From a virus, in UHGV virus genome UHGV-0258155: a DNA stretch of 11,436 bases. One strand, 5' to 3'. A model generated the notes under the pieces. That model saw only the letters and a program-made list of their open reading frames with translations. It did no database searches and had not been told where the DNA came from. Shown here one piece after another: positions 2,814-8,694 of this stretch (within the stretch, counting starts at the first letter, position 1; each line of letters opens with the position of its first letter). The translations under genes and the position numbers were made by a program.

Positions 2814-2931
2814 GTGAGATCCTCATTTTTGGGTGTTAGAATCCCCGGACCATTGATAGCGCCCATTGGGTTAACTTTGGTTTTAATGTTGTTTCCGGTG
2901 TAACTTTGGTCGGTGAGGCCGGACATGGCGG

Positions 2932-2947
2932 GCCCACTTCGGTGGGC
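2932..2947 (-). other. GC-rich hairpin (GCCCAC-TTCG-GTGGGC) in the intergenic region between the RacC-position ORF stop and the recE start
   Basis: Perfect 6-bp inverted repeat with a 4-nt loop read directly; no U-tract follows on the minus-strand transcript, so this is not a classical intrinsic terminator. Confidence 0.3.
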
Positions 2948-2953
2948 TTTCGC

Positions 2954-3725: not shown

Positions 3726-3865
3726 GATTTCCTCTTGGCCTTATCGCGGCGAACGGAACGGTTAATACAAGACTTCAACGCATTTATTCAGTGTTTCAAT
3801 GGGCGGTGGATGGCCGCCGGTTGTCATAAATGGGCAGACTCGAAAATCTGCCTATGTATGGCCGA

Positions 3866-3886
3866 TAAAAAACCCGCCGGAGCGGG
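3866..3886 (-). terminator. Intrinsic terminator on the leftward transcript directly after the 80-aa gene stop
   Basis: Minus strand reads TAA-CCCGC-TCCG-GCGGG-TTTTTT: an all-GC 5-bp stem, 4-nt loop and T6 run beginning immediately after the stop codon at 3887-3889. Confidence 0.5.
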
Positions 3887-4129
3887 TTATTCACACTTTG
3901 CATGCCTGACCGGCTTTAATTTCCACTCAGTGGCCTTAAGCTCAATTTCCTTCCTGATTTCCTGATACGTTTTCACGGAGCCATCAGCGTTTTTATTGAA
4001 CGGATTGAGCGTTTGATAAAACTTTTCCCGTCGTTTGCAGGCTTTACCGCATACGTCACACTTCCCTGATTTCTCAGCAAAAGTTGAGATCTCATCGAAC
4101 CGAGTTGTTGTAATTCCACCCCATCCCAT
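3887..4129 (-). CDS. Hypothetical 80-aa Cys-containing protein
   Basis: ORF-track ORF; ATG at 4129 preceded by AGAGGGTAAGG; CDVCGKAC motif; followed by the terminator at 3866-3886. Confidence 0.5.
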   Translation of the reverse strand: MGWGGITTTRFDEISTFAEKSGKCDVCGKACKRREKFYQTLNPFNKNADGSVKTYQEIRKEIELKATEWKLKPVRHAKCE

Positions 4130-4162: not shown

Positions 4163-4351
4163 TTATGTCTCATCGACGCATGGAAGTGATTTCCAGTCGA
4201 TATCGTTTTTTGCCGAATCCCACAGGCCTTTCTTTTTGTACTTTTCTGAGCATGGAATGCAGATGTTGTAAGGCCTGCCAACCATGTTTACAGATATTCT
4301 CTGCATCTCTTCAGATGCCAGAAAGTACCCACAGAATTGACACTTGTGCAT
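4163..4351 (-). CDS. Hypothetical 62-aa zinc-ribbon-like protein (CxxC...CxxC)
   Basis: ORF-track ORF; ATG at 4351 preceded by GGAGAG; MHKCQFCG...ICIPCSEKY. Confidence 0.5.
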   Translation of the reverse strand: MHKCQFCGYFLASEEMQRISVNMVGRPYNICIPCSEKYKKKGLWDSAKNDIDWKSLPCVDET

Positions 4352-4367
4352 ACGTACTCTCCACTTA

Positions 4368-4384
4368 GTTACCCGCTGATGCGG
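4368..4384 (-). repeat. 17-bp motif GTTACCCGCTGATGCGG, copy 2, 16 nt upstream of the ATG at 4351
   Basis: Exact repeat of 4146-4162, read directly. Confidence 0.7.
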
Positions 4385-4408
4385 GAGAAATGCTTTATCT
4401 ATCAGCTT

Positions 4409-4621
4409 CTACAACTCATCACGAATCTGTGAGAGTGTGCTGATCGCCTGGTAATGACCGCGACGCTGCTCTTCTGTTTTGAACGCACGCATATCGTCTT
4501 TTATCGATGCGATTGCCTTATTCAGAACTTCCACTTGCGCTTCTTTAATCGCCTGTTTGCGTGGCTTCTGACGCTTCTTAGGAAGGTCTCTTAAACACGC
4601 CGGAATGTATGTCTGAGTCAT
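4409..4621 (-). CDS. Hypothetical 70-aa basic protein, first gene of the leftward early operon; speculative N-like antiterminator candidate
   Basis: ORF-track ORF; ATG at 4621 preceded by AAGAGGA. The N-proximal stretch LPKKRQKPRKQAIKEAQ is Arg/Lys-rich. It is the first gene downstream of the PL-like promoter after a ~290-nt leader. The functional assignment is positional inference only. Confidence 0.5.
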   Translation of the reverse strand: MTQTYIPACLRDLPKKRQKPRKQAIKEAQVEVLNKAIASIKDDMRAFKTEEQRRGHYQAISTLSQIRDEL

Positions 4622-4845
4622 AAAAAATCCTCTTGTGATTCAGCCCAGCCCACTCAACTTCGAATGGACTGGAATAAATCTGTTTGCGCTTCGCACCTCT
4701 CATCCCGCCAGTGTTGCCCGTTCCCACGCCTTTATCGCTCTCGCGATGGGGTAGCCTCACACCGACCGGATCGCGCCCGGTGCTGCGCCGAATTTGTACG
4801 TTGGGGTCTAAACAGGATTACTGAGTGCTGTTCCGACTTTGCATG

Positions 4846-4878
4846 TTGTTAAAAAGCAGGCGACTTGCTGTCCGCCGC
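4846..4878 (-). promoter_or_regulatory. Leader RNA element: bulged hairpin followed by TGC-TTTTT and a sequence close to the rrn-type boxA (TGCTTTTTAACAA versus remembered consensus TGCTCTTTAACAA)
   Basis: Minus strand reads GGCG(G)AC-AGCAA-GTCGCC TGCTTTTTAACAACA. Could be an attenuator/terminator, a nut-like antitermination site, or both. Not folded computationally. Confidence 0.3.
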
Positions 4879-4922
4879 TGGCTAACTTCGCTCAGCTGTC
4901 GATGTTTCGTTTCGATGGAGTA

Positions 4923-4951
4923 ATTAAACATCATGTGGATTTGTAGGTCAA
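4923..4951 (-). promoter_or_regulatory. PL-like leftward promoter: TTGACC (4951-4946) - 17 bp - TTTAAT (4928-4923)
   Basis: Near-consensus -35 and TAnnnT -10 with 17-bp spacer read on the minus strand; overlapped by TGTGGATTT operator-like repeats. Confidence 0.45.
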
Positions 4952-5010
4952 CACCTTGTGGATTTATTTTGTTGATTTAATCGTTTACTGTTGATTTTTA
5001 TGTTGATTTA
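4934..5010. promoter_or_regulatory. OL-like operator cluster: five TGTKGATTT repeats (4934, 4957, 4970, 4989, 5001)
   Basis: TGTGGATTT x2 and TGTTGATTT(A) x3 read directly. The same motif family recurs between the cI-like and cro-like genes at 7815-7880. Confidence 0.45.
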
Positions 5011-5036
5011 TTTTTTGGTGGCATAAGTGATATGCT
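5003..5036 (+). promoter_or_regulatory. Candidate rightward promoter for the 65-aa gene (extended -10 TGaTATGCT at 5028-5036), overlapping operator repeats
   Basis: TG-n-TATGCT read directly; the -35 is poorly defined (TTGATT at 5003-5008 is 22 bp away); strong RBS AGGAG at 5053-5057. Confidence 0.3.
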
Positions 5037-5063
5037 GAAAAAAACATCAAAAAGGAGTGGGTA

Positions 5064-5261
5064 ATGGACTTGGATGAAGAAAGAGTGAACATGATGGTTC
5101 ACGCCATGGGGCGGGCGGTCATGGAGTTGTCACTGGCAGATTTACCTATGACCCAGCAAAACATCATCGACAAGCTGGAACGGTACCGGAAGGAAACGGG
5201 AAACGTGATAGGTAAGGGTGTGAACAGGGATGCAGCTGAGATAGTGCGGAAAGGACAATAA
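5064..5261 (+). CDS. Hypothetical 65-aa protein, convergent with the NTase cassette
   Basis: ORF-track ORF; ATG at 5064 with AGGAG 6 nt upstream; TAA stop at 5259-5261 abuts the hairpin at 5266-5281. Confidence 0.5.
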   Translation: MDLDEERVNMMVHAMGRAVMELSLADLPMTQQNIIDKLERYRKETGNVIGKGVNRDAAEIVRKGQ

Positions 5262-5389: not shown

Positions 5390-5396
5390 TGAGATA

Positions 5397-6329
5397 TTAA
5401 AGAACCGATTTAACAAGATGGTTTTTACGGTACAGACCTATGCGATCATTGTGAATCTCAGTAGTCTCCACTAAAAGAGAAACAATCTGTCCGACCTTGT
5501 GTTTTTTTTGTATTAAATCTAGCATTTCAATCGGATAGGAAGCCTTTAAATGTTCACCACCAACATCAAGCTCCAGCTTCCCATATTTGGATAGAACGAC
5601 CAGTTCGCCTGTAACCGTTTCAGTAATGGGAGGGGATGAAATGGTTGATGTAAGTCTACTCACCAAGTACTTAATTTTATTGGAGTCAATAGTTGCCACC
5701 TTGGTGCCATTACTAAATGGACCGGTCCAACTTGCATCAAATGTTAAGTTGTGTTTATCGCATTCCTCTACGATTCTCTTAAGGCTTACAGTGGAATTGT
5801 ATCCAATTTCAGCGACGTGATTCATGAAGTTGTTGTCGTCATCGCTTAACAACAAATCGAATATGCCTTTTACAGCCTTGCTGGGTACTGTTTCTACTAA
5901 TTCTGCTATTCCTGTAGAGAAGGTGACGCCCAATTTTGTAGACCCAGGGGATAAATCAGCCAGCCTGAGGTTTAAGGAGCTTTTCACGTCGTAGGGAACT
6001 TTTTTTGAGTCCTTGCCTGAGGCAATTTTGTGTGTTGCTCTTTGTATTAGCGCTGCAAGATTTGTTGAAATAGCCCCAAGCAGCTCTAAAGGAATAGAGC
6101 CAAAGTCAACCTCAGAGCCTTTCAGCCGCAGCTCAAAAAAATCGATAAGTGGGTGCCGACTATCTTGCTTTAATTTTTCGGCCTTCAAATCGCTCAGATG
6201 AGAATCCATGGAGCGATAAAGAAGCATGTCAGCAAAGGACCTGGTTTTGTTTTGCTTCATTGCATCGACTTCTTTTTGAATGAAATCAATGCGTTTATCG
6301 CAATTTTTAAACATTGATTTATCATTCAT
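5397..6329 (-). CDS. Hypothetical 310-aa protein, second gene of the cassette; no motif recognised
   Basis: ORF-track ORF; ATG at 6329 overlaps the TGA of the upstream gene (ATGA, 6326-6329), with GAGGA upstream; AT-rich codon usage (K/N/I/S rich); followed by an intrinsic terminator. Confidence 0.7.
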   Translation of the reverse strand: MNDKSMFKNCDKRIDFIQKEVDAMKQNKTRSFADMLLYRSMDSHLSDLKAEKLKQDSRHPLIDFFELRLKGSEVDFGSIPLELLGAISTNLAALIQRATHKIASGKDSKKVPYDVKSSLNLRLADLSPGSTKLGVTFSTGIAELVETVPSKAVKGIFDLLLSDDDNNFMNHVAEIGYNSTVSLKRIVEECDKHNLTFDASWTGPFSNGTKVATIDSNKIKYLVSRLTSTISSPPITETVTGELVVLSKYGKLELDVGGEHLKASYPIEMLDLIQKKHKVGQIVSLLVETTEIHNDRIGLYRKNHLVKSVL

Positions 6330-7899: not shown

Positions 7900-8121
7900 A
7901 TGATCAACAAAAAATCCAACGCCAGCACCCCGCTTGAGAAAGCCATTAATGCAGTGGGCGGCTCTCAAAAGGTGCTTGCTGAAAAGGTCGGCGTAACGCC
8001 TCAGGCCATCAATATGCTTAAAAAGCGAGGTGGCAGCCTTCCAGTAACAAAAATGCGTAAATACGAAGAAGTAACCGGACTTCCTCGCGAAGTTCTATAT
8101 CCAGGTATCTTTGCCGCCTAA
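7900..8121 (+). CDS. Cro/YdaS-like small HTH regulator (73 aa)
   Basis: ORF-track ORF divergent from the repressor; GGAG 6 nt upstream of the ATG; AINAVGGSQKVLAEKVGVTPQAINMLKKRG is a typical Cro/YdaS-type helix-turn-helix. Confidence 0.7.
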   Translation: MINKKSNASTPLEKAINAVGGSQKVLAEKVGVTPQAINMLKKRGGSLPVTKMRKYEEVTGLPREVLYPGIFAA

Positions 8122-8151: not shown

Positions 8152-8694
8152 ATGCATTCACTTGCGTATCAACACAATACCGGAATACACCCGGGAGCGA
8201 TGATAAACCGCGCTCAAGCTAAAGCGACGCCGGACCACGAAAAGATCCGCGATGCGGTCCGTGCCTGGTCATCGGCGCTGGATAATCAGGACGTGGTGTC
8301 AGCGCTGATCATCAACGAATACCGGGAGCAGGGCGGGACCGCCATCAGCTTTCCGGACGACATCAGCCGGGCGCGCCAGAAGCTGTTCCGCTTTCTGGAT
8401 AACCGCTTCGACTCTGAGCAGTACCGCGAGAACGTGCGCCAGCTGACACCGGCAATCATGGCGGTCCTGCCGGTTGAGTATCGCACTCGCCTGATCGGTG
8501 CCGATTGCAAAATGTCTCGCCTGGCTGAGGCCGAGAAAGAACTCGCAGAGGCTAAACAGGCCGTGCTGCTGGACGCTCCAGAGCATCAGAAGCTGAAAGA
8601 GGTAAGCGAGGGTATAGCGTCGCTCTTCCGCCTCATGCCGGAGCAGGTAGGACCGCTGATGACGATGGTTACATCGATGCTGGGGGTTATATGA
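8152..8694 (+). CDS. Hypothetical 180-aa protein in the CII/YdaT position (phage regulatory protein-like; weakly supported)
   Basis: ORF-track ORF; AAGGGAAAG RBS upstream of the ATG at 8152; second gene of the rightward operon after cro-like. Family assignment is positional and from vague recall. Confidence 0.5.
   Translation: MHSLAYQHNTGIHPGAMINRAQAKATPDHEKIRDAVRAWSSALDNQDVVSALIINEYREQGGTAISFPDDISRARQKLFRFLDNRFDSEQYRENVRQLTPAIMAVLPVEYRTRLIGADCKMSRLAEAEKELAEAKQAVLLDAPEHQKLKEVSEGIASLFRLMPEQVGPLMTMVTSMLGVI

What the first reader, a model, noticed from the sequence alone, without database searches (positions are those of the whole stretch)
4409..4915. Long leader with hairpin/boxA-like element followed by a small basic protein: possible N-like antitermination module
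The leftward transcript has a roughly 290-nt leader before its first gene. It contains a bulged GC hairpin followed by TGC-TTTTT and the sequence TGCTTTTTAACAA (4846-4858, minus-strand reading), which is one base from the rrn/lambdoid boxA consensus as I recall it. The first gene encodes a 70-aa protein with an Arg/Lys-rich N-proximal stretch, reminiscent of arginine-rich motifs in N-type antiterminators. Internal terminators further along the operon (for example 3866-3886) would make antitermination functionally necessary to reach recE.
Basis: inference. Interest (0 to 1): 0.5.

Follow-up and report, generated by a model that had tools for sequence, protein, structure and literature searches.

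The report
BoxA-linked structured antitermination leader RNA
The long leader of this prophage's leftward early operon carries a conserved boxA followed by a 113-nt folded RNA, also found in phi80, the N-less Shiga-toxin phages of the O104:H4 outbreak type and aphid-symbiont APSE phages; the 70-aa protein behind it is an interchangeable cargo gene, not an N-type antiterminator.

Summary
The pL promoter sits at 4951-4923 and the leader is about 295 nt. A bulged hairpin lies at 4876-4859. The boxA-like TGCTTTTTAACAA lies at 4858-4846, one base from rrn boxA. The basic 70-aa ORF is 4621-4409. A strong intrinsic terminator lies at 3888-3871, ahead of kil and recE.

The leader is homologous to phage phi80's annotated nutL. 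The conserved partner of boxA is not the upstream hairpin or the 70-aa protein. It is a 113-nt multi-helix RNA domain downstream (4816-4704), supported by strong covariation: 18 of 33 pairs compensated in an unbiased alignment.

The boxA-plus-domain module heads the early-left operon in more than 150 prophage loci and about 120 phage records. These include N-less Stx2a phages (TL-2011c, P13374), APSE, Providencia and Edwardsiella phages. There is one copy per phage, more than 50 unrelated first genes follow it, and sense terminators lie downstream.

Homologues of the 70-aa protein sit directly behind genuine N genes in mEpX2 and an Stx phage, so it is not an N analogue. The phi80 "N" family is also uncoupled from the module.

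Best reading: a cis-acting, Nus-recruiting antitermination RNA that probably needs no dedicated phage protein. This is inferred, not shown.

The parts
4923..4951 (-). pL promoter: -35 TTGACC (4951-4946), 17-nt spacer, -10 TTTAAT (4928-4923). Inferred transcription start at about 4916.
   Evidence: Read from the sequence. Identical to the pL -35/-10 annotated in phi80 JX871397. The start site is inferred from spacing, not measured.
4877..4896 (-). 5' leader hairpin GCUG(A)GC-GAAGUUA-GCCAGC. It belongs to the first ~45 nt of the leader, which HK639, with its put-type leader, also shares.
   Evidence: RNAalifold on A2. One relative (L007) replaces it with GCGGC...GCCGC. Shared with HK639. Not conserved in loci with other upstream leaders.
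4859..4876 (-). Bulged G+C hairpin GGCG(G)AC-AGCAA-GUCGCC directly upstream of boxA.
   Evidence: It hardly varies within the phi80-type leader (one of six pairs is broken in one sequence), so there is no covariation information. It is replaced by unrelated sequence in TL-2011c-type and other leaders.
4846..4858 (-). boxA: UGCUUUUUAACAA, with core GCUUUUUAACA at 4857-4847. Presumed NusB-S10 loading site.
   Evidence: One mismatch from rrn boxA, 0.04 expected by chance. Annotated 'nutL boxA' in phi80. Always found 43-48 nt upstream of the domain. It is the perfect consensus G(C/T)TCTTTAACA in TL-2011c, Salmonella, Providencia, Edwardsiella and APSE members. Consensus taken from PMC5725501.
4704..4816 (-). 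113-nt structured RNA domain. Closing helix P1 (4816-4811 with 4709-4704) and P2 (4805-4803 with 4719-4717) enclose three hairpins. Hairpin A (4800-4789) has an A-rich loop and is phi80's 'nutL core'; in this window it carries a U.U mismatch. Hairpin B spans 4788-4754. Hairpin C (4751-4724) has a GAGA (GNRA) tetraloop.
   Evidence: Covariance model R1 scores 160.9 bits over 4703-4859. On A2, 97.7% of cells are paired against 30-48% when partners are slid, with 9 pairs changed on both sides and 0 of 500 shuffles as high. On A5, which includes distant members, 23 of 34 pairs are changed on both sides and 96.5% of cells are paired. An independent MAFFT plus RNAalifold run finds the same architecture, with 18 of 33 pairs compensated. 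Single-sequence folding energy is unremarkable (z = -0.10).
4637..4696 (-). 3' extension of this leader subtype: a small hairpin (4696-4686) and an 18-bp hairpin (4680-4637) just upstream of the ribosome-binding site. Possibly a processing (RNase III-like) or translational-control element.
   Evidence: z = -3.08. Retained in this leader subtype whatever gene follows. Only one-sided changes occur, so there is no compensatory evidence. The proposed function is speculative.
4409..4621 (-). 70-aa basic protein (SD AAGAGGA at 4634-4628; identical to HK225_041; PHROG 5305, function unknown). An interchangeable cargo gene, not part of the antitermination device.
3863..3888 (-). Intrinsic terminator (tL-like): AACCCGCUCCGGCGGGUU plus a U-run. 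It lies after the 80-aa ORF and before kil (3725-3519) and recE (from 2813/2717 to 1).
   Evidence: Kil is PHROG 294. recE has Pfam Exonuc_VIII. A sense terminator within 4 kb of the module occurs in 58 of 82 non-redundant loci, against none on the antisense strand.

Best explanation
The leader is the phi80-type 'nutL': a mobile, cis-acting RNA module made of an rrn-type boxA (4858-4846) and, about 30 nt further on, a 113-nt multi-helix domain (4816-4704).

Proposed mechanism:
1. After prophage induction, RNA polymerase starting at pL transcribes boxA.
2. BoxA recruits host NusB-S10, with NusA and NusG.
3. The adjacent folded domain stabilises or completes a termination-resistant elongation complex.
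4. That complex reads through the intrinsic terminator at 3888-3871 and through any Rho sites in this patchwork operon, reaching kil, recE and beyond.

The 70-aa protein is one of many interchangeable first genes and plays no part. No dedicated phage N protein appears to be required, so the domain would substitute for N plus boxB.

Shown here: homology to phi80 nutL; the RNA structure; the boxA-domain linkage; the single copy at the pL position; the diversity of downstream genes; the terminators downstream; and that p70 is not an N.

Inferred: the antitermination activity of the module in this phage; the use of Nus factors; and independence from a phage protein.
For: - Homology. Window 4703-5254 is about 94% identical to phi80, where the region is annotated nutL boxA and nutL core. 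M11919 marks a 278-nt 'nutL regulatory signal' covering about +24 to +301 of the transcript.
- Structure; 18-23 base pairs carry compensatory double changes, more than 96% of cells are paired against about 35-45% in slid controls, and 0 of 500 shuffles reach the observed values. The GNRA loop is kept as GAGA or GUAA.
- BoxA linkage. A scan using only a domain pattern always recovered a boxA upstream, even where the rest of the leader is unrelated. Distant members have the perfect consensus.
- Position. The module always lies downstream of cI, at the head of the early-left operon: TL-2011c, APSE-1, Providencia, Edwardsiella and Klebsiella phages.
- Copy number. One copy per phage, none in the pR operons examined.
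- Need for read-through. Sense intrinsic terminators lie within 4 kb downstream in 58 of 82 loci, none antisense. In TL-2011c a terminator lies between the module and the first gene. In the window the terminator is at 3888-3871.
- No cognate protein. More than 50 unrelated first-gene families follow the module. No small basic protein is universally shared within -3 to +4 kb. No lambda- or P22-type N is found in any module locus.
- Published absence of N. P13374 and phi191-type Stx2a phages are reported to lack N (PMC4122784), yet they carry the module.
- phi80 'N'. Homologues occur in only 11 of 151 module loci. They also occur in unrelated phages without the module.
Against: - No functional data were available for this window or for any N-less relative.
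- The 1985 phi80 work (the GenBank M11919 annotation; the paper was not readable here) names a 98-aa N protein that acts with this nutL region. If that assignment rests on genetics, a protein partner may exist, and the N-less relatives would need unrecognised analogues.
- The window's boxA carries C4-to-T. Position 4 is one of two positions changed together to inactivate the suhB boxA (PMC5725501). Against this, the T4 form is the majority variant: 13 of 15 species-representative genomes.
- rrn-type boxA complexes are known, from my memory of Albrechtsen et al. 1990, to work mainly against Rho-dependent terminators. Read-through of the intrinsic terminator therefore needs an extra activity that is only postulated for the domain.
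- Most sequences are closely related, so the number of independent covariation events is smaller than the cell counts suggest. Alignment A5 was fitted to the model; A6 was not.
Confidence: 0.55

Rival explanations
1. The 70-aa basic protein is an N-type antiterminator that binds a hairpin in the leader through its Arg/Lys-rich stretch and, together with boxA and Nus factors, modifies RNA polymerase.
For: The protein is the first gene after the leader. It is small and basic (pI 9.8), with KKRQKPRKQAIK near the N-terminus. N proteins are notoriously divergent in sequence.
Against: - No match to Pfam N36 or N_peptide. The family is PHROG 5305, function unknown.
- Homologues sit immediately downstream of bona fide N genes in mEpX2 and phi296.
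- The tblastn search also found homologues in phages from hosts as distant as Vibrio. Their genomic context was not examined.
- The protein is present in only 16 of 151 loci carrying the same RNA.
- HK225 and this window share p70 but have different variants of hairpin A. phi80 and HK225 share the hairpin variant but not the protein.
- The basic stretch contains two prolines.
Confidence: 0.03
2. A classical nut site with a protein partner encoded elsewhere. The boxA-domain RNA is the binding platform for a phage antiterminator protein: PHI80_45 'N' in phi80, and unrecognised non-homologous analogues in other phages. That partner would lie outside the stretches compared, or among the diverse early genes.
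For: GenBank M11919 and X13065 and the 2012 phi80 annotation name a 98-aa N next to this nutL. The A-rich-loop hairpin A resembles a boxB. N analogues are hard to detect by sequence.
Against: - phi80 'N' homologues are absent from 140 of 151 module loci.
- They also occur in Kagunavirus phage 26 and Salmonella phage STGO-35-1, next to lysis and terminase genes.
- In Erwinia phage 59 the homologue lies downstream of a different gene that the depositors flagged as N-like. None of these three phages has the module.
- No small protein is shared across module loci within -3 to +4 kb.
- The loop of hairpin A varies freely between near-identical modules (UAAA, AAAA, CAAA, CAAAA, AGAAA, AAUG). That is unlike a boxB matched to an arginine-rich peptide.
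- There is no second nut site in the pR operon.
Confidence: 0.2
3. The structured leader is not a processive antiterminator. It would be a 5' stability or processing element, or a local anti-Rho insulator that only protects the long untranslated leader. The downstream terminators would then simply partition the operon.
For: BoxA elements also act in non-antitermination roles. At suhB, for example, boxA mediates repression and Rho-related regulation (PMC5725501). A long hairpin lies just 3' of the domain. No functional data exist. There is only one copy per phage.
Against: - The phi80 homologue was annotated as a functional nutL signal upstream of tL1.
- Sense terminators are systematically present between the module and conserved essential early-left genes. 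In TL-2011c one lies before the first gene.
- The module is conserved as a unit while everything around it is exchanged. That fits a device acting on the polymerase rather than on one particular mRNA.
Confidence: 0.2

Closest known systems
Phage phi80 nutL region (GenBank M11919 'nutL regulatory signal'; 'nutL boxA' and 'nutL core' in JX871397)
   Same: Direct homologue. About 94% identity over 4703-5254, with the same pL, boxA and domain. Model R1 scores 185.5 bits on phi80 and 160.9 bits on the window.
   Different: phi80 is followed by a 98-aa gene called N; this window is followed by the unrelated 70-aa gene. The phi80 annotation marks only a 9-nt boxA and a 12-nt 'core' hairpin, not the 113-nt multi-helix domain. 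In this window the 'core' hairpin is altered (CGUA/UUCG with a U.U mismatch).
Lambda-type N/nut antitermination (N protein, boxA, boxB, with nutL and nutR)
   Same: Same position, at the start of the pL transcript upstream of tL terminators. A boxA is present. A small hairpin with an A-rich loop is present.
   Different: There is no N-family protein. The hairpin lies about 45 nt from boxA, not about 8 nt (the lambda spacing is from my own knowledge). Its loop is not conserved. A large additional structured domain is present. There is no site in the pR operon.
put RNAs of HK022 and HK639 (cis-acting antiterminator RNAs that bind RNA polymerase)
   Same: A structured RNA at the start of the pL transcript in lambdoid phages that lack N. 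It acts, or is proposed to act, in cis without a phage protein. HK639 shares the first ~45 nt of the leader and the divergent 65-aa ORF with this window.
   Different: put is about 70 nt with two stem-loops, and HK022 has both putL and putR (PMC9378689); put also has no boxA (my own knowledge). Here there is a boxA plus a 113-nt domain of five helices, in one copy. Model R1 finds nothing in the HK639 or HK022 regions examined (best 12.3 bits, E about 0.5).
rrn operon leader antitermination (boxB hairpin, boxA, boxC; NusA/B/E/G, SuhB, S4)
   Same: The boxA is nearly identical to rrn boxA (12 of 13 bases) and in relatives matches the consensus exactly. In this window a hairpin precedes boxA, as in rrn leaders. 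No phage protein is needed in that system.
   Different: No boxC-like G/U-rich element is evident. A specific folded domain follows boxA. The rrn complex is mainly effective against Rho-dependent terminators (my own knowledge), whereas here intrinsic terminators lie downstream.

Membership tests
Lambda-type N/nut system | An N-family protein (arginine-rich motif; Pfam N36 PF11438 or N_peptide PF25694) encoded as the first gene of the pL operon | tested here: not met
   p70 has no N-family hit at E <= 1. As positive controls, lambda N and the mEpX2 and phi296 N proteins score 56-92 bits. tblastn with three N proteins finds nothing in the window or in any module locus.
Lambda-type N/nut system | A boxA element in the leader RNA | tested here: met
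   TGCTTTTTAACAA at 4858-4846. It is conserved, or is the perfect consensus, in all relatives.
Lambda-type N/nut system | A boxB hairpin a few nucleotides downstream of boxA, with a conserved loop matched to the N peptide | tested here: not met
   The only candidate, hairpin A (4800-4789), lies about 45 nt downstream of boxA and has a U.U mismatch here. Its loop varies freely among near-identical modules.
Lambda-type N/nut system | A second nut site in the rightward (pR) operon | tested here: not met
   No second boxA at two mismatches or fewer. No second model hit in the window, in phi80 from pR to Q, in the 7.7-kb HK225 immunity-region locus (L002), or in TL-2011c from pR to the terminase.
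put antiterminator RNA (HK022/HK639) | Sequence and structure similar to known put RNAs: two stem-loops, about 70 nt | tested here: not met
   The architecture differs: P1 and P2 plus three hairpins, 113 nt. R1 finds no significant hit in the HK639 or HK022 loci. The put description comes from PMC9378689. No put model was built, so the reverse search was not done.
put antiterminator RNA (HK022/HK639) | Acts alone on RNA polymerase, without Nus factors or a phage protein | not testable with these tools
   The invariably linked boxA argues for Nus involvement, which would distinguish this module from put. Independence from a phage protein is inferred.
rrn-type boxA (Nus-factor) antitermination | A boxA matching the consensus GYTCTTTAANA | tested here: inconclusive
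   The window has GCTTTTTAACA, with position 4 C to T. Thirteen of 15 species-representative genomes share this variant and 2 of 15 have the perfect consensus. The TL-2011c, Providencia, Edwardsiella and APSE members also have the perfect consensus. Binding was not tested.
rrn-type boxA (Nus-factor) antitermination | Dependence on NusB, NusE, SuhB and related factors | not testable with these tools
   This needs genetics or biochemistry.
phi80-type nutL RNA module (defined here by model R1) | A boxA followed after about 30 nt by P1/P2 enclosing three hairpins, at the head of the early-left operon | tested here: met
   160.9 bits, full-length match at 4703-4859. The module lies downstream of cI (7836-7072) and pL.
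PHROG 5305 (the 70-aa protein) | Full-length profile match | tested here: met
   E = 2.2e-35, residues 1-70 against profile positions 1-71. The family has no assigned function.

The most novel reading that the evidence does not exclude
The boxA-plus-113-nt-domain module is a third kind of phage processive-antitermination signal, alongside N/nut and put. In this reading a self-sufficient nascent RNA uses boxA to load host Nus factors, and its folded domain does the job of N plus boxB. That would make RNA polymerase resistant to intrinsic and Rho-dependent terminators with no phage-encoded protein. It would explain how the N-less lambdoid phages express their early-left operons. These include the Stx2a phages of the O104:H4 and O103:H25 outbreak type, the APSE phages, and probably phi80 itself. 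The protein called 'N' in phi80 would then be misnamed.
Probability: 0.35. Interest if true: 0.8.

Novelty: new variant of a known kind. Interest (0 to 1): 0.6.

Why it matters
Several groups of lambdoid phages are reported to lack N. They include the Stx2a phage of the 2011 O104:H4 outbreak (PMC4122784). How these phages get past early terminators is an acknowledged gap.

This work identifies a conserved, covariation-supported RNA domain, fused to a boxA, at exactly the place where such a device should be. It is not in Rfam 15. It gives precise coordinates and testable helices.

If the module works without a phage protein, it would broaden the repertoire of RNA-based control of elongation. 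It would also link phage antitermination mechanistically to the host rrn system. It may correct a 40-year-old gene name, phi80 'N'.

For annotation, it warns against calling the first small basic pL gene 'N'.

Tried and rejected
- **Rfam.** I searched at gathering thresholds over the whole window, and at E <= 10 over 4350-5100. Nothing was found in the leader.
- **A hidden small ORF in the leader** (MRGAKRKQ..., overlapping 4700-4578). Rejected: relatives carry a stop codon or a frameshift (L007, L032).
- **A diverged put RNA.** Rejected: the architecture differs and the model finds nothing in the HK639 or HK022 regions.
- **A second, nutR-like copy.** None was found in the window, in phi80 from pR to Q, in the HK225 immunity-region locus, or in TL-2011c from pR to the terminase.
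- **A conserved partner protein.** I clustered all ORFs within -3 to +4 kb in 52 non-redundant loci. Only the CI-like repressor (50 of 52), Kil (38 of 52) and other cargo genes recur. No universal small basic protein appears.
- **The hairpin-plus-U-run at 4876-4851 as a conserved attenuator.** Rejected: it is not conserved where the upstream leader differs, and the consensus boxA interrupts the U-run.
- **An alternative ACAG/CUGU pairing in place of P1.** Rejected: P1 covaries in APSE and Edwardsiella, and the alternative does not.
- **Single-sequence thermodynamics of the domain.** Uninformative (z = -0.10).
- **Literature.** The phi80 genome paper (PMC3510586) and the HK639 put paper (PMC3187212) are not held. 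The 1985 Gene paper is not in the library. Full-text searches found no description of this RNA.
- **Not run.** I judged synteny decisive, so I did not run the large protein-database searches or a structure prediction for p70.

Full report
**Context.** The window is the immunity and early region of a phi80/HK225-like lambdoid prophage.
- The regulators are a CI-like repressor (7836-7072, minus strand), a Cro-like protein (7900-8121, plus) and a CII-like protein (8152-8694, plus).
- The leftward operon runs on the minus strand in this order: pL, leader, 70-aa ORF (4621-4409), 62-aa zinc-ribbon-like ORF (4351-4163), 80-aa ORF (4129-3887), intrinsic terminator (3888-3871), kil (3725-3519, PHROG 294), three to four small ORFs, and recE.
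- recE stays open from 2813 or 2717 to the window's left end and carries Pfam Exonuc_VIII.
- Region 4300-5049 is 94.8% identical to phage HK225, and 4703-5254 is about 94% identical to phi80.

**Observation.**
- The pL hexamers are those annotated in phi80.
- The leader is about 295 nt.
- The bulged hairpin lies at 4876-4859.
- TGCTTTTTAACAA lies at 4858-4846. It is one base from rrn boxA, with 0.04 such matches expected per window.
- The 70-aa protein has a Lys/Arg-rich stretch at residues 11-26.
- The terminator lies at 3888-3871.

**What the leader is.** phi80's genome record annotates the same TGCTTTTTA as 'nutL boxA' and a small hairpin 45 nt downstream as 'nutL core'. The 1985 record M11919 marks a 278-nt 'nutL regulatory signal' that covers about +24 to +301 of the transcript.

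**The conserved domain.**
- Scanning IMG/VR with the boxA context returned 113 loci with the same leader.
- Aligning them showed that conservation extends far beyond boxA, through about 4703, with paired substitutions.
- RNAalifold and explicit pair counting define a closing helix P1 (CCUGUU/GGCGGG), a second helix P2 (CCC/GGG) and three enclosed hairpins.
- In the phi80-like set, 97.7% of cells are paired against 30-48% when partners are slid. Nine pairs changed on both sides, and 0 of 500 shuffles reached the observed values.
- A blastn search with the module alone then found it in about 120 phage records. These include HK225, phi80, Klebsiella KO-TP1, about 65 Stx2a-converting phages (TL-2011c, P13374, phi191, PA2, VT2phi_272, Ss-VASD), the Hamiltonella APSE phages, Providencia PSTCR7lys and Edwardsiella Edno5.
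- Covariance model R1 scores the more distant members at 107-180 bits.
- With those members included, 23 of 34 pairs show changes on both sides. That alignment was fitted to the model.
- An independent MAFFT plus RNAalifold run recovers the same architecture, with 18 of 33 pairs compensated.
- The tetraloop of hairpin C stays GNRA (GAGA, or GUAA in APSE).
- Species-representative genomes place the module in Enterobacter, Kosakonia, Huaxiibacter, Salmonella and Escherichia.

**BoxA is part of the module.**
- A scan with a pattern taken only from the domain always recovered a boxA 43-48 nt upstream of P1, even where the rest of the leader is unrelated.
- The TL-2011c-type, Salmonella, Providencia, Edwardsiella and APSE members carry the perfect consensus G(C/T)TCTTTAACA. 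The consensus GYTCTTTAANA is from PMC5725501.
- The window's C4-to-T form is the majority variant in the phi80 lineage: 13 of 15 representative genomes.

**Genomic logic.**
- In every annotated case the module lies downstream of cI, at the head of the early-left (recombination) operon.
- There is one copy per phage. None was found in the pR operons of the window, phi80 or TL-2011c, and no second copy in the HK225 immunity-region locus.
- Stringent sense-strand intrinsic terminators occur within 4 kb downstream in 58 of 82 non-redundant loci, at 0.80 per locus. None occur on the antisense strand.
- In TL-2011c a terminator lies between the module and the first gene.
- This layout is what one expects of a device that licenses read-through.

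**The 70-aa protein is not N.**
- It matches no Pfam N family and falls in PHROG 5305, function unknown.
- Its 48%-identical homologues in mEpX2 and Stx phage phi296 lie immediately after genuine N genes (Pfam N_peptide, PHROG 271) in operons with annotated boxA sites.
- Among 151 loci that carry the RNA module, 16 have p70, 11 have phi80's 'N' and 124 have neither.
- The first gene after the module falls into more than 50 unrelated families. These include antirepressor-like, HNH and strongly acidic proteins.
- No small protein is shared across loci, and no lambda- or P22-type N is present.

**phi80's 'N' is also uncoupled from the module.** Homologues occur in Kagunavirus phage 26 and Salmonella phage STGO-35-1, beside lysis and terminase genes. 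In Erwinia phage 59 the homologue lies downstream of a different gene that the depositors flagged as N-like. None of these three has the module.

**Mechanism.** The best-supported reading is a cis-acting antitermination RNA.
- BoxA would load NusB-S10.
- The folded domain would supply what N plus boxB supplies in lambda, or what put supplies in HK022.
- Only the anatomy, the conservation and the homology to a region annotated as a functional nutL are shown. Activity, Nus dependence and independence from a phage protein are inferred.
- The main caveat is the 1985 assignment of a phi80 N protein, which I could not read.
- A second caveat is that rrn-type boxA complexes are, to my knowledge, weak against intrinsic terminators. 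The domain must therefore contribute an activity that remains to be demonstrated.

**Comparison with known systems.**
- The module is homologous to phi80 nutL.
- It fails three of four defining features of an N/nut system: there is no N protein, no adjacent conserved boxB, and no nutR.
- It does not resemble put RNAs in architecture and is not detected in the HK639 or HK022 regions.
- It shares boxA and the hairpin-then-boxA order with rrn leaders, but adds a specific domain.
- It is absent from Rfam 15, and I found no description in the searchable literature.
- P13374 and phi191-type Stx2a phages are explicitly reported to lack N, with an 'alternative mechanism' suspected (PMC4122784).

**Verdict.** The antitermination leader and boxA hold up; the N-like protein does not. 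What is really there is a member of a widespread and apparently undescribed boxA-linked structured RNA family at the start of early-left operons in N-less lambdoid phages.

**Limits.**
- Many sequences are near-identical.
- E-values from the quickly calibrated model are rough.
- There is no experimental evidence.

Noticed in passing
window 2855-2952 (+): Rfam isrB (RF01386, a Salmonella island-encoded Hfq-binding sRNA) matches at 38.2 bits against a gathering score of 35. The match is antisense to the leftward operon, just upstream of the recE start. A promoter-like site lies at 2814-2842 (+) and the RNA ends in a terminal hairpin.
   Followed up: no
window 5395-5405 (-), with terminators at 5390-5371 and 5281-5266 (-): A second, perfect boxA consensus (GTTCTTTAATA) sits at the stop codon of the 310-aa ORF of the cI operon, immediately before two tandem intrinsic terminators. 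Only 0.16 matches to the relaxed pattern are expected per window, so it may still be chance.
   Followed up: no
window 5064-5261 (+): A 65-aa ORF (PHROG 3975, function unknown) is transcribed divergently from pL, across the operator region. Homologues occupy the same place in HK225, in HK639 (which has a put-type leader) and in 22 of 52 non-redundant module loci. It is not annotated in phi80 although the DNA is conserved.
   Followed up: partly
window 4637-4680 (-): An 18-bp hairpin (z = -3.1) lies between the structured domain and the ribosome-binding site. It is retained in this leader subtype whatever gene follows. It could be an RNase III-type processing site like the one in the lambda N leader (the lambda comparison is from my own knowledge). 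Only one-sided substitutions are seen.
   Followed up: partly
window 4935-5010 (-): Five direct copies of AAATC(A/C)ACA lie in and upstream of pL. They overlap the three 19-bp CI operators annotated in phi80.
   Followed up: no
L003 (HK639) 2702-2760; L032, L033, L062, L104 and L125 downstream of the module: The 3' ~60 nt of HK639's annotated 'putL-like antiterminator RNA' (GATTTACCAGCAGCTCTTTGCGAGGGGCTGACGGTAAACAAACAGAGGGGTGTGTATG) also occurs directly after the boxA-domain module in several loci. It is probably the 5' UTR of a shared cargo gene rather than part of put.
   Followed up: no
L001 3004-3300 (phi80 PHI80_45 'N'); L199, L200, L201: The protein annotated as phi80 N has no Pfam N-family match and falls in PHROG 25091 (function unknown). 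It has 63-77% identical homologues in phages that lack the leader module, located beside lysis and terminase genes. The 'N' label may be positional only.
   Followed up: partly
L193 (TL-2011c) 4356-4796: In the Stx2a phage TL-2011c, which has the same module as the O104:H4 phage P13374, the layout is: pL-like promoter (4356-4384), boxA (about 4464), domain (to 4614), then a sense intrinsic terminator (4781-4796) before the first gene (Rha, 4968). A BsuBI restriction-modification system lies between cI and pL.
   Followed up: partly
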